Assembly (NCBI GenBank): GCA_040005235.1
Contig: JBDTZG010000051.1
Span: 1 to 39,411 of the forward strand
Direction of reading: 5' to 3'
Source: Acidobacteriota bacterium
GTDB taxonomy: Bacteria > Acidobacteriota > Thermoanaerobaculia > Multivoradales > UBA5704
DNA: 39,411 nt
This document shows, piece after piece, positions 396 through 9,300 of this stretch. A model generated the notes under the pieces. The model ran no database searches. It had not been told where the DNA came from and saw nothing but the letters and a program-made list of their open reading frames with translations. Position 1 is the stretch's first letter. Each line of letters starts with the position of its first letter. The translations under genes and the position numbers were made by a program.

Positions 396-2576
396 TCAGG
401 CGGCGCGGTGGTGCAGCAGCCGCAGGCCGTTCGCGATCACCAGCAGCGAGGCCCCCATATCGGCGGCGATTGCGGCCCAGAGAGAGGCGTGGCCGGCGAG
501 GGTGAGGACCACGAAGACCGCTTTGATCGCGAGCGAAAGCACGATGTTCTGGCGGATGATGGAAAGCGTCCGGCGGGAGTGCCGGATCAGCCAGGGGAGC
601 TTCGCCAGATCGTCCGACATAAGAGCCACGTCGGCGACTTCGATCGCCGCGTCGCTTCCTGCCGCCCCCATTGCCACGGACATCGTGGCCCGGGCCATCG
701 CCGGGGCGTCGTTGACCCCATCGCCGATCATTGCGACGGCGCCGTAGCGGGCAAGCAGCTCGTCGATCGCGGCGACTTTTTCGGCCGGCAGCATCTCGGG
801 CCTTACGTCGTCGATGCCGGTCTTCCTGCCGATCGCTTCAGCCGTGCCGCGGTTGTCGCCGGTCAACATCACGACCGCTTGGATACCCGCATCGCGCAAC
901 GCCTGGACGGACGATCTCGACTCCGGGCGGACCTCGTCGGCGATCGCGATCAGACCGCAAACGTGGTCCGCCGTTCCCACGACGACCGCCGTCTGGCCGG
1001 CTTGGGACATCTCTTCGAGCCGTTGGTGGATCTCCGGGGTCTCCTGCCCGCGCTCCTCCAAGTAACGATGCGAGCCCAGCCAGTACTCCTTCCCGTCGAA
1101 TCGCCCCGCAGCTCCTTTCCCCTGAAGGATTCGAAAGTCTTCGGCCGGCCGCACCAGGACGCCGCGGTGCTTGGCAAAGGCGAGGATCGCGCGGGCCAGA
1201 GGATGCTCGCTCCGAGCTTCCAAGGCTCCGACCCGTTCGAGCAACTCCCGCTCATCATGCCCGGCCAGCGGGACGATCTCGGTCACCTCGGGCTTGCCCC
1301 AGGTCAACGTTCCCGTCTTGTCGAGGGCCACGGCTTTGAGGCGCGACGGGATTTCGAGGAACAGGCCCCCTTTGATCAGCACGCCGTTCTTGGCGGCCGA
1401 GGCGAGCGCCGCGACGATGCTCACCGGGGTGGAGATCACCAGGGCGCACGGGCAGGCGATCACCAGCAGCACGAGCGCCCGGTAGATCCAGGCGTCCCAG
1501 GCACCGCCGAGCAGGAGAGGAGGGAGCAACAGCACCGCGAGAGCCAAGCCCAACACGACCGGGGTATACACGCGGGCAAATTTCTCGACCCATTGCTCCG
1601 ACGGTGCCCGCCGCGATTGGGCCTCGTCCACCAGGCGGATGATGTGGGCGAGCGTCGAATCCCCCGCCCGCTTCGTCGCTTCGACCTCCAACGCGCCGTC
1701 GCCGTTGATCGTTCCGGCGAAAACGTCTGTCCCTAGCTCTTTGACAACCGGCACGCTCTCCCCGGTGATCGGCGCCTGGTTGACCTCGCTCGTGCCGCTT
1801 GCGACCCGGCCGTCGAGCGGAATGCGCTCACCGGGTTTGACCAAGAGAAGCGCGCCGATCTCCACCTGCTCAGCGGGGATTTCCTCCTCGCGGCCGTCCG
1901 GATGCCGCACCCGGGCGGTCTGCGGCGTCAGGTCCATCAAGGCCTCTACGGCGCGCCGCGCCCTGCCGATGCTCCATGATTCCAAAGCGAGCGACAGGCT
2001 GAAGAGGAAGGCGACCGTCGCCCCCTCGAACCATTCGCCGATCGCGACCGCGCCGAGGACGGCGATCGTCATCAGCAGGTTCATGTCGGGACGGAAACGC
2101 CGCAGCGCATTCCAGGCCTTCGGCAAAACGGACCAGACCCCGAGGAGGATCGCGAGGCTGTAGAGAATTCGCGCAGCGACCGGGGGCCCCTCCGCGATCC
2201 CCATCCCCTCCGAGCCCAGCGCCCGGGAAATCCCTCCGGCAAGTGCCGCATGGACTGCGAAACCGGCCAAGGCGAAGGCGCCGCTCGCCGCCGTCAAGAC
2301 CGTCCGCCCGCGACGGAGCCAGAAACTCTCGGGCTCCAGGCGCTCGGCGTCGTCCTCCCAGACCTGGGCGCCCATTCCGGTGCGTTCGACCGCTTTGACG
2401 ATCTCGCGCGGCGCGATGTCGCGAGCCGGCCCGAGCACCGTCATCTTCGCCTTGAGCAGGTCGAAAGAGAGGCGCTCTTCGCCGCCGACCAGCGGGCCGA
2501 TCTCGCGCTTGAGGATCGCCACCTCCTCGGCGCAGTCCATGCCTCGGATCTTGAACTGATGCTCCTCCGTGCTCAT
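396..2576 (-). CDS. cadA: Heavy-metal translocating P1B-type ATPase (Zn/Cd/Pb, CadA/ZntA-like)
   Basis: N-terminal HMA-like GMDCAEE, TGES, CPCALVIS, DKTGTLT, SEHPLA and GDGVNDAP motifs. Start placed at MSTEE (2576), which forms an ATGA overlap with the RND stop. Confidence 0.93.
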   Translation of the reverse strand: MSTEEHQFKIRGMDCAEEVAILKREIGPLVGGEERLSFDLLKAKMTVLGPARDIAPREIVKAVERTGMGAQVWEDDAERLEPESFWLRRGRTVLTAASGAFALAGFAVHAALAGGISRALGSEGMGIAEGPPVAARILYSLAILLGVWSVLPKAWNALRRFRPDMNLLMTIAVLGAVAIGEWFEGATVAFLFSLSLALESWSIGRARRAVEALMDLTPQTARVRHPDGREEEIPAEQVEIGALLLVKPGERIPLDGRVASGTSEVNQAPITGESVPVVKELGTDVFAGTINGDGALEVEATKRAGDSTLAHIIRLVDEAQSRRAPSEQWVEKFARVYTPVVLGLALAVLLLPPLLLGGAWDAWIYRALVLLVIACPCALVISTPVSIVAALASAAKNGVLIKGGLFLEIPSRLKAVALDKTGTLTWGKPEVTEIVPLAGHDERELLERVGALEARSEHPLARAILAFAKHRGVLVRPAEDFRILQGKGAAGRFDGKEYWLGSHRYLEERGQETPEIHQRLEEMSQAGQTAVVVGTADHVCGLIAIADEVRPESRSSVQALRDAGIQAVVMLTGDNRGTAEAIGRKTGIDDVRPEMLPAEKVAAIDELLARYGAVAMIGDGVNDAPAMARATMSVAMGAAGSDAAIEVADVALMSDDLAKLPWLIRHSRRTLSIIRQNIVLSLAIKAVFVVLTLAGHASLWAAIAADMGASLLVIANGLRLLHHRAA

Positions 2577-5500
2577 GCCTCTTGCTCCCTTCCGCCCACC
2601 ACCCAAGCGTACACGCTCGGCAAGACGAGCAAGGTGAACAGCGTCGAGGTGACCAGGCCGCCGACCATGACGATCGCGAGCGGCCGTTCGAGCTCCGAGC
2701 CGCCGAAGCCGATCAGCATGGGGGCGAGGCCGAGGATCGCCGCTCCGGCGGTCATCAGCTTCGGCCGGACGCGGCCGATCGACGCCTCGCGGAGCGCGGC
2801 GCGGAATGGCAGGCCGGCGGCGATCAGCTCCTTGGTTTGGGAGATCAGCACCAGGCTGTTCTGCACCGCGACGCCGAACAGGCCGATCACGCCGACGATC
2901 GACGAGGCGTTCCAGGTCTCACCGGTAAAAGCCAGGGCGTAGAGTCCGCCGGCAAAGGCGACCGGCAGCGTACCGACGACCACCAGGACCTCGCGCGGTC
3001 GACCGAGGGCGAGAAACAGAAGCAAGACCACCAGGGCGAGGGCCACGGCGCTCGCGACCAGCAGGCGCTTCTGCGTTTCGCGCGCCTCTTCGATCTGGCC
3101 GGAGAGCGCCACGAGAGTTCCCTTCGGCAGGTCGAGCTTGGACAGTTGGCGCTCGACCGCCTGGGCGGTGCCGCCGAGATCCCCCTCGGTCCGCAGGTTC
3201 CAGCCGAGGCGGCGTTGGCCGTTCTTCCGCCGGATCAGCGAGGGCATGGTGTCCTCTTCGATCTTCGCCACCTGGCCCAGCTCGACGATCCGCCCTTCCT
3301 CGACCACGATCGGCAGACGCTCCATCTTGGTCGGCGTGAGACGGCCGTCCGCCGGAAAGCGCACCGTTCGTTCGATCCGTTGCGGGCCGTCGAATCGAGG
3401 AGCCAGGACGATCCCCTGGAGCGCCGCTTCGAGCGTTTGGAGCAGCGCTTTCCTTGGTACGTCGAGCCGGCGGAGCGCATCGTCGTCCGGCACGATCCTC
3501 CAGCGCGGCAGCGGGGCGCCCGAATCGGGCGTGACGCCCGCCACGCCGGGAACTCGGGCCAGGAGTTGCGCGATGTCGTTCGATCGACGCTCCACGACGG
3601 AAAGGTCGGGATGGAACAGCTCGACCTGAATGTCGGCTGGCGTGCCGCCGATCCCTTCCGAGATCCGCATCTTCATCGGAGTCGTCAGCTCGACGCCAAA
3701 CGGCATGTGTTCGGCCAATTCTTCCAGCTCGGATTCGACTTGCCGCACGTCGGCCCGCGGCTCAAGGACGATCAGGACATCCGATAGGTAGCTCGGCATC
3801 GGATCTTCAGTCACCTCGCCACGACCGGTGCGGCGATACGCGGCGCGGACACCGGGGATCTTCCCCGCCTCCTGTTCGAATTGACCGTTGGCCTCGTCGA
3901 TCGCGGCGAGACTCGTGTCCGACGGGAGAAACGTCTGCACCAGAAGCGCCCCCTCGTCGAGCGCGGGCAGGAAGTTCGTGCCCAGCCGGGTCGCGAGAAA
4001 GATCGCCGGCAGGGCGAGGGCGAGCGCAGCGATTTGCACCAGCGCGCCGTGGCGGAGCGCCCAATCGAGCACCGGCCGATAGACGCGTTTGATCGCCCGG
4101 ATCACCCCCGGCTCTTCGAGGCGCGTTCCGGGTGGCAGGAAGCGATCGACCAACACCGGCACCAGGGTGAAAGAGAGGACCAGCGCGATGGTCATCGCCG
4201 AGGCGACCGCGACGGCGAGCGGGGCGTACAGCTCGCCCGCCACTCCGCCGATCGCGAGCAGCGGAATGAACACCGCGAGAATCACCAGGACCGCCGTGGC
4301 GATCGGCACCCCAACCTCCGCGGCGGAATGGGCAATCGTCCGCCGACGGGCCTCGGGGTCGGAACCTTCCAGGTCGTGCAGCCGGTGGACGACGTTTTCC
4401 ACCATGATCACGCCCGCATCGACCAGCAGTCCCACGGCGATGGCGAGCCCCCCCAACGTCATCGCGTTCAATCCGAGCCCAAGGGCGAACAGCGGGATCG
4501 CGGCGCCGAGGGTCGCGAGCGGCAGGAGGACGATGACGAACAGTGCGCCGCGCAGGTTGCCCAAGAGAACGATCAACACCAGTCCCACGAACAACGCGCC
4601 GAGGGCGAGCGCCTGGGAGACGCCACCCAGCGCATGGGAGACCAAATCACCCTGGTCGTAGAACAGATCGAGCGACATCCCGGCGGGAAGCGAACGCCGC
4701 AGCTCGGGCAGCAGGGCGCGAACGCCCCGGCTGGTCGAAAGGGTGTCCGCGGTCGGCTGCTTGATCACCCGAAACGACACCACCTCGAAGCCCTTGAACC
4801 GCGCGAGACCCATTCGGAACTCCGGCGCCTCGCGCACCTCGGCGAGCTCGCCCAGGGCGACGACACCGCGCGCCGTATGCACCGGCAGGCGCCGTACTTG
4901 CTCGACCTCCGCTGCGAGCGAAGCGACCGAAACGTGCCACTGCTTGTCGCGGATCTCCAGAATGCCCGCCGAAACGTCCTTCTCGCTTCCTTCGAGCGCC
5001 TCGACGACCTGGTCGAGCGAGACTCCGACCAGGCGCATCGTCTCGGGCGAGATCGAGACCTGAAGCTGGCGCCCTTCTCCCCCGAGCAACTCGATCCGCG
5101 CCACCCCGGGCACCGATTGCAGGCGGGGGATCAGCACCTTCACCGCTTGATCGCGCAGCTTCATCGGATCGACCGCAGGACCTTGGAGCACCAGCTCCTG
5201 GATCTCCTGGAGACGGCCCGCCGCGGAGGTGAGCAGCGGCGCCGAGGTGCCCTCGGGAAAGCCAGTCATTACCCCAGCGAGCTTTTCGCCCACCAGCTGG
5301 CGCGCCCGCCATGGGTCGGTGCCAGGCTCGAATGCGACGACGATCTGCGTCACTCCGGCCTGGATCGTGCTCGTCACCCGGCGCACTCCCGGCAGGCCGG
5401 TGAGCACCTGCTCGACCGGCTGGGCCACCGTCAGCTCCAGCTCCGACGGATCGCGGCCGGGGCTCTGGATCAGAAGTTGAATCGACGGGAGCGCCAGGTT

Positions 5501-5686
5501 CGGGAAAAGATCTCGCGGTAGGCGCCAGAAGGTGAAGAACCCCGCGACGCCCCAGAGCAAGGCGAGCGCCAGAATCCACCCTCGCGCCGCGAGGGCGCCC
5601 GCGAACCAGCGCTGCAGGAGCGCGCGGCCCGCGGGCGGGACGGACGATCGATCGGCGAGCGGTGCATTCTTCTCCTCAGTGGTCAT
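2573..5686 (-). CDS. CzcA/CusA-family heavy-metal RND efflux permease
   Basis: 1037 aa with an RND layout: NAMTLGGLAIAVGLLVDAGVIMVEN, FLPALDEG, RVRPKLMT and PLAIVMVGGLVTST. Confidence 0.93.
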   Translation of the reverse strand: MTTEEKNAPLADRSSVPPAGRALLQRWFAGALAARGWILALALLWGVAGFFTFWRLPRDLFPNLALPSIQLLIQSPGRDPSELELTVAQPVEQVLTGLPGVRRVTSTIQAGVTQIVVAFEPGTDPWRARQLVGEKLAGVMTGFPEGTSAPLLTSAAGRLQEIQELVLQGPAVDPMKLRDQAVKVLIPRLQSVPGVARIELLGGEGRQLQVSISPETMRLVGVSLDQVVEALEGSEKDVSAGILEIRDKQWHVSVASLAAEVEQVRRLPVHTARGVVALGELAEVREAPEFRMGLARFKGFEVVSFRVIKQPTADTLSTSRGVRALLPELRRSLPAGMSLDLFYDQGDLVSHALGGVSQALALGALFVGLVLIVLLGNLRGALFVIVLLPLATLGAAIPLFALGLGLNAMTLGGLAIAVGLLVDAGVIMVENVVHRLHDLEGSDPEARRRTIAHSAAEVGVPIATAVLVILAVFIPLLAIGGVAGELYAPLAVAVASAMTIALVLSFTLVPVLVDRFLPPGTRLEEPGVIRAIKRVYRPVLDWALRHGALVQIAALALALPAIFLATRLGTNFLPALDEGALLVQTFLPSDTSLAAIDEANGQFEQEAGKIPGVRAAYRRTGRGEVTEDPMPSYLSDVLIVLEPRADVRQVESELEELAEHMPFGVELTTPMKMRISEGIGGTPADIQVELFHPDLSVVERRSNDIAQLLARVPGVAGVTPDSGAPLPRWRIVPDDDALRRLDVPRKALLQTLEAALQGIVLAPRFDGPQRIERTVRFPADGRLTPTKMERLPIVVEEGRIVELGQVAKIEEDTMPSLIRRKNGQRRLGWNLRTEGDLGGTAQAVERQLSKLDLPKGTLVALSGQIEEARETQKRLLVASAVALALVVLLLFLALGRPREVLVVVGTLPVAFAGGLYALAFTGETWNASSIVGVIGLFGVAVQNSLVLISQTKELIAAGLPFRAALREASIGRVRPKLMTAGAAILGLAPMLIGFGGSELERPLAIVMVGGLVTSTLFTLLVLPSVYAWVVGGREQEA

Positions 5687-6860
5687 GCTCGTCGCCCCCG
5701 CCGCCCGCGAGCTTCAGGTAGAGCGATTTGAGGAGATAGGCGCCCTCGGTCGCGATCGTCTCGCCCGGCTTTATCCCATCGAGCACGAGCACCTCGGCGC
5801 CCAGCTCGGCCCCTTTGCGCACCGGCCGCAGCTCCGCCCGGCCGGCGTCCTTCACGAACACCCCCCAGGTCCCCTCGATCAGCTGCAATGCCGCCTGCGG
5901 CAAGACGACGGCACTCGCCAGGGGAACCCGCACTTCAAGGGGTGTCCCGGCGAGAGGCCACGTCGTTTGTTCGCCAGCGAGACGCAATCGATAGGTCAAT
6001 CGGCGGGTCGCATCCGAAAGCGACGCGGGCATCCCCTCGACCGTCGCCTGCCAGCGCTGGCCGGTCGCGCGGCGCACCTCGGTCTTCGCCCCCAGCCCCC
6101 AAGTCTCCGGACCCGGCAGCGGAATCTCGACCAGCACCCGCGAAGCGCCGGGGGCGATCAACCGGCCGAGATCGCCGCCGGCTTCCACCCCCTGGCCCAC
6201 CGCCACGGCGAACGACTCGACCACCCCTCCGCGCGGCGCGCGCACCCGGTAGGTCGTCCCGGCGCTCGCCGGATCGACGCCGCGCGCCTCAAGCGCCAGG
6301 CGGGCGGAGGTCTCTTCCACCGCAGCGACTTCCGCCCCGGCCTGCGCCGCTTCGACGTCGCGCTCCGAGGTGGCGCCCCCTTCGAGCAGCCGGCGCTCGC
6401 GCGCCACTTCGCGATCGGCCTGCGCTCTACGGGAACGGGCCGCGAGCCAGGCGGCCTTTTTCTCCGCCAGCTCGGGACTGCGGATCTCGACCAGCGCTGC
6501 GCCGCGCGAAACCGACCGGCCCGGCTCGACGAGCAGCGAGGTGACGATGCCCCCGACCGGCGCCGAAAACGTCGCCGCCGATCCCGTCTCGGAGATCGCC
6601 TCCGCGGCAAACCAGGCGCCCTCCTCGCGCGGCGGCCCCACCACCGCGAAAGAAATCCCGCGGACCCCGGTGAGGTCGATCGAGCGCTGTCCCTCGCTGG
6701 AAGACTCTCCGCGCTCTACTTCGGCGGTCGCCTTTCCGCCTTCGGAGTGGGCATGCTCTGCGCTCTCGGCGGCGGGAGACTTGTCGACCTTCTTGCAGCC
6801 CCCTAACGTGAAGAACAGCGAAGAAAGGAGGACGACGAGGAGCGGGTTTCGGCAGGTCAT
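5676..6860 (-). CDS. RND efflux periplasmic adaptor (CzcB-like), lipoprotein
   Basis: Start at MTCRNP (6860; ATGA overlap with the tolC stop). Lipobox LGGC, lipoyl-like APVGGIV and APRGGVV motifs, His-containing EHAHSE and C-terminal DEHDH. Confidence 0.88.
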   Translation of the reverse strand: MTCRNPLLVVLLSSLFFTLGGCKKVDKSPAAESAEHAHSEGGKATAEVERGESSSEGQRSIDLTGVRGISFAVVGPPREEGAWFAAEAISETGSAATFSAPVGGIVTSLLVEPGRSVSRGAALVEIRSPELAEKKAAWLAARSRRAQADREVARERRLLEGGATSERDVEAAQAGAEVAAVEETSARLALEARGVDPASAGTTYRVRAPRGGVVESFAVAVGQGVEAGGDLGRLIAPGASRVLVEIPLPGPETWGLGAKTEVRRATGQRWQATVEGMPASLSDATRRLTYRLRLAGEQTTWPLAGTPLEVRVPLASAVVLPQAALQLIEGTWGVFVKDAGRAELRPVRKGAELGAEVLVLDGIKPGETIATEGAYLLKSLYLKLAGGGGDEHDH

Positions 6861-8110
6861 GGCAGCACCTCGGCGGTCAGGATGGCAAGCTCCCAGGAAG
6901 CGGCCAAGAGCGCCGCATGGCGTTGGATTCGGGAAAGCTCCGCAGCGATCACGGCACGGCGCTGAACGAGGGCCTCCGACGGGCGGGCCTTCCCTTCGGT
7001 GAGCCGCAGCTCGATCGCCCCGAGCGTGCGCTCCGGCGAGGGATCGATCGAAGCGGATGACGGAGTTTCGAACGCCGACAGGGCCGAGAAGCGGGAGCGG
7101 GCGGACGCGAACCGGCTTTTCAGCTCGGCAAGGCTTTGATCCGCCTGTCGTTCGGCGGCGGCGATCGAGGCGGCGAGCGCCTGATCCGCAGTGGGCCGCT
7201 CGGCCGCCAGCGGAAATCGATAGGCGAGGCCGAACCGCGCGACGCTCTCCTCCGCTTCGCGCGCCAGGCTCGAACGGAGCGCCCAACGCGTTTGCGACCG
7301 GCCCAAATCGAAACGCGCGAGCGCCACCGCCAGATCGCGCCGCGCGGTGAGCGCCAGGCTCAACGGGCTCGAATCGAACCGGGCGACGAGATCCACATCG
7401 GCCGGCAGGTCGGGCGGCGCCGGCTCGGCAATTCTTTCGCCGTTCCCAACCGCGGGTAAATCTTGGAGCGGCGGCTCGATCCAAACCGCGAGCTGACCCC
7501 AGGCCCCCGCCCGGGCCGCGAGAGCCTCGGCCCTGGCGGCGCGCGCTTGCTCCAAATCGAAAGCGACCAGATCGACCTCGAACGCCGCCTCGGCCCCCTG
7601 GTCCAAGCGGCGCTTCGCGATTTGCAACCAGCGCTCGACCGTCGAGACATCGTCGCCGCGCAAGAGGACCTCCCGCTCGGCGGCCCAGGCCGCGACGAAC
7701 GCCGCGGCAATCCGGCCGCGCGTTTCAAGCCGCGCCGCAGCCGGGAGCAGAGCACCTGACCGTTCCAGAGCCGCGAGGGCCTCCTCTCGACCGTTTCCCC
7801 GGCCGAGCAGCGGCAGGTCGAGATCGATCGCAATATCGGCGTACGTGGCGTCGGTCGAGCCGTTCGTTCGCCGAGGGCCGGTTTCGATCCCGAGGGTCGG
7901 TCCAGCGGCAAAGCGCGCCGAGGTGGCGCCCAGCTCGCGCCGCGCGGCGGCCAGTTCGGAGTTCGCGGCAAGCTCCTCTGCGCTGGCACGAGCCCGCGCG
8001 AGGAGATCTTCGAGCCGGGGAAGCACCTGCCCCCCGTTCGCCGACCGGGCGAGCATCAGAATGCACAACAAGGTACAAGCGGTCGTACCGACCGCGGAAC
8101 GGATGAGCAT
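6857..8110 (-). CDS. TolC/CzcC-family outer membrane efflux protein
   Basis: Signal peptide MLIRSAVGTTACTLLCILMLARSANG, helical repeats (AKRRLDQG, LRLTEGK) and position ahead of the adaptor and RND genes. GAGG RBS about 10 nt before ATG 8110. Confidence 0.8.
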   Translation of the reverse strand: MLIRSAVGTTACTLLCILMLARSANGGQVLPRLEDLLARARASAEELAANSELAAARRELGATSARFAAGPTLGIETGPRRTNGSTDATYADIAIDLDLPLLGRGNGREEALAALERSGALLPAAARLETRGRIAAAFVAAWAAEREVLLRGDDVSTVERWLQIAKRRLDQGAEAAFEVDLVAFDLEQARAARAEALAARAGAWGQLAVWIEPPLQDLPAVGNGERIAEPAPPDLPADVDLVARFDSSPLSLALTARRDLAVALARFDLGRSQTRWALRSSLAREAEESVARFGLAYRFPLAAERPTADQALAASIAAAERQADQSLAELKSRFASARSRFSALSAFETPSSASIDPSPERTLGAIELRLTEGKARPSEALVQRRAVIAAELSRIQRHAALLAASWELAILTAEVLP

Positions 8111-8117
8111 GAGCCAA

Positions 8118-8183
8118 GACCTCGCCGCTTCAGACGTGCGAAGACGCACGCCGGATTGGGGACTTCAGCGGAAAGCGGAGGTC
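8118..8183 (-). promoter_or_regulatory. Predicted RBS-sequestering stem between the leader ORF and tolC
   Basis: On the minus-strand mRNA, GACCUCCGCUU (8183-8173) is complementary to AAGCGG-CG-AGGUC (8130-8118), which contains the tolC GAGG. Inner hairpin CGUGCG-UCUU-CGCACG at 8150-8135. Confidence 0.55.
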
Positions 8184-8457
8184 AAGCGAAGAGCGGGACG
8201 TGCAGAACCGCGCGGGATACGCCGGGGAGCAGTTCGCCTCGGACCCCACCCATCGAAGCGACGAGAGACCGCTCCGCATCGGGCAGTAAAACGCCAAGGG
8301 AAGCCGGTACCACCGGGTTGCAGCAGCACGAAGCGCAAGCCTCGCGGCAAGGGGCGCCGCGGTCGCAATCATCCGAGCAGCCCAGGTCGAGCCCAGCCGC
8401 CGCACCGGCGGTAAGGATCACGAAAAGGGCGAGCAGGGCGACGGCGAGGGGCTTCAT
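8182..8457 (-). CDS. Cys-rich exported leader protein (CzcI/DUF2946-like architecture)
   Basis: 91 aa with a hydrophobic N-terminus, 7 Cys in residues 27-46 (CSDDC...C...CASCCC) and C-terminal VLHVPLFA. First ORF of the metal efflux operon. Confidence 0.75.
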   Translation of the reverse strand: MKPLAVALLALFVILTAGAAAGLDLGCSDDCDRGAPCREACASCCCNPVVPASLGVLLPDAERSLVASMGGVRGELLPGVSRAVLHVPLFA

Positions 8458-8536
8458 GCGAGGGGTACTCTATCGGAAGCAGATCTGATCCTACGATTTT
8501 GCGGATCATCCCATCGACCTTGCTGCCCGGCCCATG

Positions 8537-8558
8537 ACTGGATATATTACTGGCTATA
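8537..8558 (+). promoter_or_regulatory. Tandem operator-like repeat upstream of the antitoxin gene
   Basis: ACTGGATATA (8537-8546) and ACTGGCTATA (8549-8558) form an AT-rich patch directly before RBS GGAGG (8563-8567). Confidence 0.4.
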
Positions 8559-8572
8559 AGACGGAGGCCATC

Positions 8573-8875
8573 ATGAGCCACACTTCCCAGACCCGCGCCA
8601 TCAAGAATTACCGGAACCGACTGGTCGAACGCGGTATGGCCCGCTTCGAGGTTCTCGGCCGCGACTCAGACCGCGAGCTGATCCGCTCGTTCGCCAAGCG
8701 CCTGGCCGAAGACGGCCCCGATGCTGACCTGTTGCGGGCGGCCGTCAGCCAGGGCGACAGCAGTGAGCCGCAGCGGAGAGGCGGTATCCTCGAAGCCCTT
8801 CGGCGCTCGCCGCTCGTCGGTGCCGACGCCATTCCCGATCGTTCCTTTGAACCAGGTCGCAAGGTTGACCTGTGA
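8573..8875 (+). CDS. Putative antitoxin of the PIN toxin
   Basis: RBS GGAGG then ATG 8573. Sequence includes GMARFEVLG..DRELIR..A and GGILEALRRSPLVGAD. GTGA overlap with the PIN gene. Confidence 0.75.
   Translation: MSHTSQTRAIKNYRNRLVERGMARFEVLGRDSDRELIRSFAKRLAEDGPDADLLRAAVSQGDSSEPQRRGGILEALRRSPLVGADAIPDRSFEPGRKVDL
8789..8827 (+). repeat. Dispersed repeat copy 1 (inside the antitoxin 3' end)
   Basis: CTCGAAGCCCTTCGGCGCTCGCCGCTCGTCGGTGCCGAC, matching the copies at 10712 and 11468. Confidence 0.8.
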
Positions 8876-9300
8876 GTCGTTTCCTGCTCGACACCAACAT
8901 CATCAGCAATATCACCAAACCCGCTCCCTCCGAGTTGCTGGTCGCCTGGATGGCGAAGCAGGCAGATAACGATCTTTTCATAGCCTCTTTCACCGTCGCC
9001 GAGGTCTGGCGCGGGGTGCTGGAGAAACCTTTCGGCCGGAAGCGGGACCAACTGGAAGCCTGGTTCACCGGGCCGGAAGGTCCCTCGGCCCTTTTCGCCG
9101 GCCGCGTCCTCGCCTTCGACGAAAAAGCTGGCCTCGCTTGGGCGAGGCTGATGGCGGAGGGCAAGGCAAGAGGCCGTTCCCGCAGCGCGCTAGACACCAT
9201 CATTGCCGCGACCGCTGAGGCAAACGACTGTATCGTCGTCACGGACAACGAAGATGACTTCTATGGTGTAGAGATCTTCAATCCGCTTCGGGACCGGTAA
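8872..9300 (+). CDS. vapC: VapC-family PIN-domain toxin
   Basis: FLLDTNIIS, TVAEV, DTIIAATA and VVTDNEDDF supply the PIN acidic residues. Confidence 0.9.
   Translation: MSRFLLDTNIISNITKPAPSELLVAWMAKQADNDLFIASFTVAEVWRGVLEKPFGRKRDQLEAWFTGPEGPSALFAGRVLAFDEKAGLAWARLMAEGKARGRSRSALDTIIAATAEANDCIVVTDNEDDFYGVEIFNPLRDR

What the first reader, a model, noticed from the sequence alone, without database searches (positions are those of the whole stretch)
8110..8457. Cys-rich leader ORF with an anti-SD stem over the tolC RBS: candidate metal-sensing translational switch
Seen: a 91-aa ORF with a signal/TM segment, 7 Cys in 20 residues and a Pro-containing tail (RAVLHVPLFA). The sequence overlapping its stop, GACCUCCGCUU, can form 11 bp (with a 2-nt bulge) with AAGCGGCGAGGUC, which contains the tolC SD. 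Established: DUF2946-type upstream ORFs (CruR of Bordetella, CutF of Rhodobacter) combine export signal, Cys motif and a C-terminal Pro-containing motif to control downstream metal genes, and CzcI precedes czcCBA in Cupriavidus. Inference: a ribosome pausing at a non-RAPP 'HVP' motif would melt the stem and license efflux translation.
Basis: partly seen in the sequence, partly recalled or inferred. Interest (0 to 1): 0.75.

Follow-up and report, generated by a model that had tools for sequence, protein, structure and literature searches.

The report
HVP leader gating metal-efflux operon
A small, conserved cysteine-rich gene heads a zinc/cadmium-type efflux operon, and the end of its message is predicted to hide the pump's ribosome-binding site, so it likely works as a metal-triggered ribosome-stall switch like the copper sensor CutF, but with an undescribed single-proline (His-Val-Pro) tail.

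Summary
The leader ORF (8457-8182, minus strand, 91 aa) is real. It is kept in 7 of 7 same-genus genomes, with dN/dS 0.03 in the Cys cluster and tail and 0.45 in the linker. It belongs to an unnamed family (82 distinct sequences; Acidobacteriota, Myxococcota-type) built as export signal, Cys cluster, fixed spacer (CxxC to Pro 41-44 residues in 70 of 82) and PRx[IV][LF]HVP[KLR] 2-8 residues before the stop. All 29 loci found without using the pump precede CzcC/CzcB-type genes (23 by HMM, 6 by eye).

The exact 11-bp stem is only partly supported: five core pairs have p about 0.8, the extension about 0.17, and the fold is not unusual (z -1.28). Family-wide, the SD pairs with the leader's end in 20 of 23 loci versus 14 of 120 control gene pairs.

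New here: the leader looks leaderless (-10 box, no SD) and all four pump genes overlap.

The design matches CutF/CruR. The family has no DUF2946 hit and mostly lacks the PP motif that the published survey required. Stalling and metal sensing are untested. Verdict: new variant of a known kind.

The parts
8467..8472 (-). Predicted -10 promoter box TAGAGT, 9 nt before the leader ATG; no SD, so a leaderless or near-leaderless mRNA is inferred
   Evidence: Kept in same-genus loci while sequence further upstream is not; TA at -12..-15 in 28 of 32 family loci vs 5.9% background, SD-like word in 1 of 32; starts picked by hand. The sigma-70 scan finds no full promoter.
8182..8457 (-). Leader ORF, 91 aa (HVP-family leader)
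   Evidence: overall dN/dS 0.23 over 5 sequences.
8392..8457 (-). N-terminal export signal or membrane anchor, residues 1 to about 22 (cleavage site not predicted by a tool)
   Evidence: Sequence; AlphaFold helix 2-20 with pLDDT above 90; hydrophobic N-terminus throughout alignment A3.
8320..8379 (-). Cys cluster C27-C46 (C27, C31, C37, C41, C44, C46 conserved in the genus; CxxC = C41/C44 invariant in A3); inferred metal or disulfide sensor
   Evidence: dN/dS 0.03 for residues 23-48.
8215..8319 (-). Variable linker of conserved length (C44 to P88 = 44 residues)
   Evidence: dN/dS 0.45; CxxC-to-Pro 41-44 in 70 of 82 family members.
8185..8214 (-). Conserved tail R82-A-V-L-H86-V87-P88-L-F-A; candidate arrest motif (HVP codons 8202-8194)
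   Evidence: dN/dS 0.03 with synonymous change at V and P codons; motif-only DNA scan links the motif to upstream Cys and a nearby stop.
8178..8183 (-). 5' arm core GACCUC, overlapping the leader stop codon; anti-SD
   Evidence: Pair probability 0.79-0.81 for five pairs; 47 of 48 cells paired in 8 same-genus sequences, none varying on both sides.
8167..8177 (-). Two alternative extension arms (CGCUU 8177-8173; CCGCU 8171-8167) for AAGCGG
8133..8152 (-). Inner 8-bp hairpin that brings the SD next to the leader stop
   Evidence: MFE; inner hairpins of differing sequence in the same-genus loci folded; real spacers beat shuffled spacers in 21 of 23 loci.
8118..8123 (-). 3' arm GAGGUC containing the OEP Shine-Dalgarno core GAGG
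6857..8110 (-). CzcC-like outer-membrane efflux protein
   Evidence: PF02321 E 4e-11.
5676..6860 (-). CzcB-like membrane fusion protein; start overlaps the OEP stop (ATGA)
   Evidence: PF16576; TIGR01730 over cut-off, TIGR00999 below cut-off.
2573..5686 (-). CusA/CzcA-type RND transporter; overlaps the MFP end by 11 nt
   Evidence: PF00873; best NCBIfam TIGR00914, 597 bits, below the 701 cut-off.
396..2576 (-). P1B ATPase of the Zn/Cd/Pb type (CPC, DKTGT, N-terminal GMDCAEE); start overlaps the RND stop (ATGA)
   Evidence: TIGR01525 and TIGR01512 (cadmium family) well over cut-off, TIGR01511 (copper) barely over; junction.

Best explanation
The 91-aa ORF is a conserved leader gene that likely acts in cis as a CutF-like switch: metal binding to its exported Cys cluster would hold the ribosome at the His-Val-Pro tail, which is predicted to free the Shine-Dalgarno site of the first efflux gene. 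Shown by sequence and comparison: the ORF, selection on the Cys cluster and tail, the fixed spacer, the family's place before CzcC/CzcB-type genes, and the overlap of all four pump genes. Predicted by folding: with no ribosome present, the RNA at the leader's end pairs with the SD and keeps the OEP off. Inferred: a leaderless transcript from a simple -10 promoter is translated and the leader is exported co-translationally. Without metal, pulling by the translocon or disulfide folding carries the ribosome through HVP, it terminates quickly and the stem re-forms. With Zn/Cd-type ions bound to the Cys cluster the pull is lost, the ribosome dwells with Pro88 at or near the P site, covers the anti-SD, and translation of OEP and the coupled MFP, RND and ATPase starts. 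The direction (stall = on) is inferred from the RNA geometry and from the genes being exporters; the metal is inferred from the ATPase and MFP types only.
For: Leader in 7 of 7 same-genus genomes with invariant VLHVP and three more residues. dN/dS 0.03 Cys cluster, 0.03 tail, 0.45 linker (5 sequences). 37 of 42 cluster representatives end in HVP/HIP, 3 in PP, 2 are junk. A DNA pattern holding only the tail motif gave 57 GTDB hits: 21 of the 23 with 5 or more upstream Cys stop within 8 residues of the Pro, against 3 of the other 34 (Fisher p 2e-10). All 29 distinct loci found by leader HMM or motif precede OEP or CzcB-type MFP genes (23 by HMM, 6 by eye). CxxC-to-Pro 41-44 in 70 of 82; CruR has 45 residues between CXXC and RAPP, and spacing matters (PMC9426467); CutF works out at 41-43 from its last Cys to PPP (my arithmetic). 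SD partner lies in the leader's end in 20 of 23 loci vs 14 of 120 control pairs; median opening cost 5.9 vs 3.5 kcal/mol. Native leader-end/RBS duplexes beat cross-locus pairs (permutation p 3.4e-4) and real spacers beat shuffled ones in 21 of 23. In 17 of the 18 loci with a clear release, covering RNA to at most +16 from the Pro codon frees the SD. PP-ending leaders occupy the same slot before related OEP or MFP genes (L012, L036-L038, L040-L043). Mechanism shown for CutF in PMC9973294 and bioRxiv 10.1101/2025.02.05.636593.
Against: No experiment shows stalling, metal binding or cis action. The residue after the Pro is never Pro (K 32, L 28, R 21, I 1 of 82), whereas CutF needs PPP and EF-P and RAPP arrest needs an A-site Pro (PMC10951233). 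The window's own fold is unremarkable. In the window the SD is freed only at +14/+15 from the Pro codon, and with cover to +14 the cost fell only from 5.9 to 5.1, against 2.5 for a terminating ribosome. The test of whether release tracks the Pro or the stop was inconclusive (slope 1.6 +/- 1.5), and 5 of 23 loci showed no clear release. The native duplex ranked in the top 3 of 23 for only 8 loci. The window of -9..+24 used was chosen after seeing the folds; controls came from crude gene calls in G000 alone; C-rich tail codons pair with any GAGG (shuffled spacers still gave a median 0.33 pairing). Core pairs in the genus are fixed by the stop codon and SD and show no covariation. With a 44-residue spacer the CxxC may still sit in the translocon, so the compartment sensed is open (inference from recalled tunnel lengths).
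Confidence: 0.6

Rival explanations
1. The stem is opened by ordinary termination at the leader stop (translational coupling), and the leader protein works after export as a small periplasmic metal-binding or regulatory protein, in the manner suggested for CzcI.
For: In this genus the anti-SD begins in the stop codon, and a terminating ribosome frees the SD better than a Pro-stalled one (2.5 vs 5.1 kcal/mol). CzcI sits before czcCBA, lacks a terminal proline motif and is suggested to be a metal-sensing regulator (PMC9973294 passage).
Against: A free protein gives no reason for a length-fixed, sequence-free linker or for a motif always 2-8 residues from the stop. In several distant loci the predicted SD partner lies in or next to the HVP codons, well before the stop. 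No folded domain is predicted beyond the signal helix (pTM 0.32; low confidence).
Confidence: 0.15
2. The ribosome does pause at HVP, but the main output is transcriptional: the paused ribosome shields the intergenic RNA from Rho or nucleases, as with CruR, and the SD stem is secondary.
For: CruR works through Rho-dependent termination (PMC9426467). The intergenic RNA is C-rich on the sense strand. 7 of 39 loci have spacers above 110 nt, and several show little SD occlusion (L013, L077, L104).
Against: Most spacers are short (median 74 nt in the 23 tested; 71 here) and SD pairing with the leader's end is conserved and locus-matched. No U-tailed terminator between leader and OEP start.
Confidence: 0.13
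3. The leader is an arrest peptide that monitors envelope state (Sec pulling or periplasmic disulfide formation) and responds to thiol-reactive metals only indirectly.
For: Six conserved Cys could form three disulfides; the CutF model itself invokes disulfide-generated pulling; RAPP-type secretion monitors share signal plus terminal motif (PMC10987492).
Against: Every locus examined precedes metal-efflux genes, none sec or dsb genes; a general monitor would be expected before more varied operons.
Confidence: 0.09
4. The ORF or stem is a chance feature of GC-rich DNA.
For: Fold z -1.28; no Pfam or NCBIfam family.
Against: Purifying selection, family of 82, motif-Cys-stop association p 2e-10.
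Confidence: 0.03

Closest known systems
CutF of Rhodobacter capsulatus (cutFOG). Read: passages and sections 10-12 of PMC9973294; first of 6 parts and passages of bioRxiv 10.1101/2025.02.05.636593
   Same: Export signal, Cys motif, about 41-44 residues to a terminal proline motif, stop 2-3 residues later, short intergenic stem over the next gene's SD, downstream metal-detox gene. OEP genes of RND systems are the commonest neighbours of CutF-like genes.
   Different: CutF ends PEPEGPPPRL and depends on PPP and EF-P; this leader has one Pro in HVP. CutF controls a copper oxidase; this operon looks Zn/Cd-type. No sequence-profile link was found. 71 of 82 family members fail the PP filter used to list CutF-like proteins.
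CruR (bp2923) of Bordetella pertussis, DUF2946/PF11162. Read: first of 7 parts and passages of PMC9426467
   Same: First gene of a metal operon; CXXC at a fixed distance from a terminal motif three residues before the stop.
   Different: CruR uses RAPP, copper relieves the stall, output is Rho termination over a 162-nt spacer, the target is an importer, and the signal peptide is dispensable. PF11162 does not hit this leader.
RAPP/RQH-family and ApcA arrest peptides. Read: passages of PMC10951233, PMC10987492, PMC12992588
   Same: H-V-P can be laid on [RQH]-A-P; ApcA stalls with a non-Pro residue (Gly) in the A site; HAPP is a known variant.
   Different: HVP is not among the listed motifs (0 occurrences in the main text of PMC10987492 and PMC12992588). 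PP-ending relatives (FHPP, FQPP) suggest instead that Val replaces the first Pro, so the register is open.
CzcI of Cupriavidus metallidurans and CopL (passages of PMC9973294 only)
   Same: Small exported gene ahead of a czcCBA-type or copper operon.
   Different: CzcI is described as lacking a terminal proline motif. The CopL model NF033807 hits only a distant RPP-type leader (L015, E 4e-7, below cut-off), not HVP leaders.

Membership tests
DUF2946 (PF11162; CruR) | Match to the PF11162 profile | tested here: not met
   No hit for the leader or 44 relatives at E up to 0.5; PF11162 search of G000 finds two other places, not this one; hhalign of A3 with the genome's DUF2946-like leader gives probability 0.7%.
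DUF2946 (PF11162; CruR) | C-terminal RAPP motif | tested here: not met
   Tail is RAVLHVPLFA; the residue after the Pro is never Pro in 82 sequences.
DUF2946 (PF11162; CruR) | CXXC at a conserved distance (45 residues) from the terminal motif | tested here: met
   CxxC invariant in A3; distance to the Pro 41-44 in 70 of 82, a few residues shorter than in CruR.
CutF-like proteins (survey in PMC9973294) | Under 150 aa, with an N-terminal signal peptide | tested here: met
   91 aa; hydrophobic helix 2-20. No signal-peptide predictor was available, so cleavage is not tested.
CutF-like proteins (survey in PMC9973294) | PP within the last 15 residues | tested here: not met
   Absent here; present in 11 of 82 family members.
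CutF-like proteins (survey in PMC9973294) | Cys/His metal motif and a same-strand metal-handling gene close downstream | tested here: met
   Six conserved Cys; OEP 71 nt downstream; 29 of 29 independently found loci.
CutF mechanism | Intergenic stem that shields the downstream SD | tested here: met
   By prediction only. No probing data.
CutF mechanism | Metal-induced ribosome stalling, in cis, dependent on signal, Cys and tail | not testable with these tools
   Needs toeprinting and reporter mutants.
CutF mechanism | EF-P-dependent polyproline stall | tested here: not met
   No consecutive prolines in the tail; EF-P dependence itself is untested.
RAPP/RQH arrest peptides | [RQH]-[AG]-P in the P site with Pro (or Gly) in the A site | tested here: inconclusive
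   H-V-P followed by K/L/R; the register cannot be fixed from sequence or folding.
Known Rfam cis-regulatory RNAs | Match to an Rfam model | tested here: not met
   0 matches at E up to 5 in 7900-8700.

The most novel reading that the evidence does not exclude
HVP leaders are a separate family of metal-sensing arrest peptides in Acidobacteriota and Myxococcota-type bacteria. They stall the ribosome with a single-proline, EF-P-independent PRx[IV][LF]HVP motif, sense Zn/Cd rather than Cu, and from a leaderless transcript with no conserved operator act as the sole switch for a fully coupled CzcCBA-CadA operon.
Probability: 0.3. Interest if true: 0.75.

Novelty: new variant of a known kind. Interest (0 to 1): 0.52.

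Why it matters
In the papers read here, the mechanism of metal sensing by a nascent peptide has been worked out only for copper (CruR, CutF), and both use two or more prolines at the stall site. This family keeps the same layout but swaps the motif for His-Val-Pro. Published surveys that filter on PP or RAPP-like words would miss most of it. If it stalls, it adds a new arrest chemistry and probably a Zn/Cd sensor. Natural HVP and PP versions in the same genomic slot give ready-made swaps to test which residues matter. The general design is already known, which caps the interest.

Tried and rejected
1. Stop-codon read-through fusing leader and OEP. Rejected: the spacer is in frame in only 4 of 8 same-genus loci (71, 71, 69, 63, 64, 69, 95, 60 nt) and not in the window.

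2. Upstream GTG at 8149 as the OEP start. Rejected: no SD there, and the ATG at 8110 with GAGG is kept in kin.

3. Intrinsic terminator or known riboswitch in the spacer. None found.

4. HVP conserved only for RNA pairing. Unlikely: Val and Pro codons vary at third positions (GTC 9, GTG 2, GTT 2; CCG 6, CCC 5, CCT 1, CCA 1). His is CAC in 13 of 13 against about 74% CAC in G000, which leaves a weak RNA constraint possible.

5. Paralogues in G000. No second HVP leader.

6. Structure prediction. Uninformative beyond the signal helix; no fold search was run.

7. ESM Atlas with homologue P0002: unnamed Acidobacteriota and Myxococcota clusters at 0.95-0.96, and DUF6660 at 0.94 with 124 of 256 shared features, a lead only.

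8. Expression.

9. Metagenome scan. Only 2 close loci, one matching L007 over the stretch compared.

L018 and L019 (weak OEP hits) showed no leader. L039, L044 and L046 were not read.

11. Stall at Pro versus at the stop. Inconclusive.

12. Literature. No paper held HVP or LHVP with arrest terms. One search returned only the CutF paper as relevant, nothing relevant. The three text supplements of PMC9973294 held (8,054 characters) have no such term. Its File S1 list and HMM logos were not seen and could include some of the 11 PP-bearing members.
Full report
Observation. The minus strand holds a 91-aa ORF at 8457-8182 with a hydrophobic N-terminus, seven Cys in residues 27-46 and the tail RAVLHVPLFA. 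Its stop lies 71 nt before an outer-membrane efflux gene (PF02321). That gene is followed by a membrane fusion protein, a CusA/CzcA-type RND pump and a P1B ATPase that scores best with heavy-metal and cadmium-family models. All four genes overlap their neighbours (ATGA, 11 nt, ATGA), so translation of the first could gate the rest (inference). Homologues at 80-83% identity are labelled Thermoanaerobaculia by NCBI.

The stem as written is only partly right. In the ensemble of 8100-8200 five core pairs joining the stop codon region to the SD have probability about 0.8, the sixth 0.42, and the five extension pairs 0.11-0.18, because a second CCGCU competes; an 8-bp inner hairpin lies between the arms. 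The region folds no better than shuffles (z -1.28), and about 16% of 120 control gene pairs have an SD at least as costly to open.

The leader is a real gene. A search of 41 genomes with the OEP found it in 14, including 7 of 7 same-genus relatives. All seven carry the leader with VLHVP and three further residues. Of the seven more distant OEP loci, two have HVP leaders, three have PP-ending leaders and two weak hits have none. Over the window and four relatives, dN/dS is 0.03 in the Cys region, 0.03 in the tail, 0.45 in the linker and 0.48 in the signal. Six Cys are conserved; the seventh is private to this genome.

It belongs to a wide, unnamed family. A profile search of 1.84 billion representatives gave 42 hits: 37 end in HVP or HIP, 3 in PP, and 2 are junk. 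The profile contained HVP, so this count is partly circular. An independent test used a DNA pattern for the tail alone on GTDB genomes and gave 57 hits. Of the 23 with five or more Cys in the 75 residues upstream, 21 stop within 8 residues of the Pro; of the other 34, 3 do (Fisher p 2e-10). Record titles place the 21 in Thermoanaerobaculia, Vicinamibacteria, other Acidobacteriota, Deltaproteobacteria, Kofleriaceae, Haliangiales, Myxococcales and unclassified bacteria. Counting the 29 distinct loci found by leader profile or motif, all precede an OEP or a CzcB-type MFP, in two cases behind a small Cys/His protein; 23 were confirmed by HMM at E 1e-12 and 6 by eye. Across 82 distinct sequences, which include about 20 close kin and about 20 fixed by the pattern, the CxxC lies 41-44 residues before the Pro in 70, Arg is at -6 in 70, 2-8 residues follow the Pro, the next residue is never Pro, and only 11 have PP in the last 15 residues. 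Of 45 sequences scanned none reaches a Pfam cut-off or hits DUF2946, and no HVP leader among those scanned hits an NCBIfam model better than E 0.003.

The RNA feature is conserved as a geometry, not a sequence. I folded 39 loci and kept 23 for statistics, dropping 6 same-genus kin and 10 with spacers outside 40-110 nt or without a GGAG/GAGG core. The SD pairs mainly with the stretch from -9 to +24 of the Pro codon in 20 of 23, against 14 of 120 crude control gene pairs from G000; the median opening cost is 5.9 against 3.5 kcal/mol. That stretch was chosen after seeing the folds. Two further controls agree: native leader-end/RBS duplexes are stronger than cross-locus ones (permutation p 3.4e-4, though the native pair is in the top three for only 8 of 23), and real spacers bring the SD to the leader's end more than shuffled spacers in 21 of 23. 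Within the genus the six core pairs hold in 47 of 48 cells but never covary, since they are the stop codon and the SD; the whole 12-pair helix shows 85% pairing and three double changes that may be alignment artefacts. Covering RNA as a ribosome would frees the SD by +16 from the Pro codon in 17 of the 18 loci with a clear release; five show none. In the window the step is at +14 to +15, the edge of a Pro-stalled ribosome (footprint size recalled, not tested), and whether release follows the Pro or the stop could not be decided.

The box is kept in the genus while sequence further upstream is not. TA sits at -12 to -15 in 28 of 32 family loci against 5.9% of ATG/GTG codons in G000, and an SD-like word in 1 of 32 (starts were picked by hand from several candidates). 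I read this as a leaderless transcript without a conserved operator, which would leave regulation to translation. A canonical CxxC...RAPP leader elsewhere in G000 has the same layout, so this is not special to HVP leaders.

Mechanism. The layout is that of CutF, where copper bound to an exported Cys motif stalls the ribosome at PPP and melts a stem over the cutO SD (PMC9973294; bioRxiv 10.1101/2025.02.05.636593). The spacer also matches: 45 residues in CruR and 41-43 in CutF by my arithmetic from the numbering. I therefore favour a metal-induced stall at HVP that opens the SD (0.6), with Zn/Cd-type ions inferred from the pump genes. Rivals are plain coupling with a trans-acting exported protein (0.15), Rho or stability control as in CruR (0.13), an envelope or disulfide monitor (0.09) and chance (0.03). 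The main weakness is chemical: CutF needs PPP and EF-P, RAPP needs an A-site Pro (PMC10951233), and HVP has one Pro. ApcA shows that a non-Pro A-site residue can work, and PP-ending relatives (FHPP, FQPP, DPP, GPP) fill the same slot, so HVP is probably a substitute for a PP motif.

Membership and novelty. It works like CutF by every test possible here but is not a member of DUF2946 by profile and fails the PP filter of the published CutF-like survey. Searches for HVP or LHVP with arrest terms found no paper, and the word is absent from the main text of three papers searched for it; supplements were seen only in small part. Earlier notes of this scan describe similar leaders with other tails in other genomes (unchecked AI notes), and none matched this sequence or all search words. 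The design is thus known and recurrent; the HVP family and motif appear undescribed. Verdict: new variant of a known kind, interest 0.52.

Noticed in passing
L105 (G000:C64:19844-20170, minus strand): The same genome has a canonical CruR-like leader (signal, CxxC, 44 residues, RAPP, two more residues) scoring 20.3 bits on PF11162, below cut-off, before an exported protein of unknown type; it also has a -10 box and no SD.
   Followed up: partly
L035 and L045 (G324:C2:147976-148653), L047 (G324:C20): One genome has three HVP leaders; two are back to back and divergently oriented, each heading its own efflux genes.
   Followed up: partly
L035/L082 and L077, gene directly after the leader: A small predicted lipoprotein with repeated WCxEH..PES.C..C motifs sits between leader and MFP, and the motif recurs at the MFP N-terminus; no NCBIfam hit at 1e-12 for the L035 copy.
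   Followed up: no
window 8534-9300, plus strand: A PIN-domain gene (PF01850) and its upstream partner, a likely toxin-antitoxin pair, lie divergent from the leader. The neighbour upstream of the leader promoter differs among same-genus genomes, suggesting an insertion hot spot.
   Followed up: no
L037, L038, L040, L041, L043 (family f50, same phylum) and L012 (G038): PP-ending leaders (EPEK.PP, EIGPP) with a CxxxCxxxCxDGC cluster precede OEPs that look like the same clade as the window's, a natural PP/HVP swap.
   Followed up: partly
L015:2873-3202 and L017:911-1246: His-rich leaders ending RPPRS and RPPRT precede distant OEPs; L015 hits the CopL model at E 4e-7, below cut-off.
   Followed up: partly
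window 396-2576 and L107-L111, L114: The P1B ATPase follows the RND gene in G000, G002, G006 and G038 but not in G001, G003 or G004, so it is a variable fourth gene.
   Followed up: partly
L056, spacer after the leader stop: A 145-nt spacer contains tandem 9-nt units and their inverted copies, predicted to form one long hairpin, yet the SD still pairs with the leader's end.
   Followed up: no
L065 and L093: The leader start region and OEP of L065, and the MFP of L093, appear frameshifted; assembly error or decay was not distinguished.
   Followed up: no
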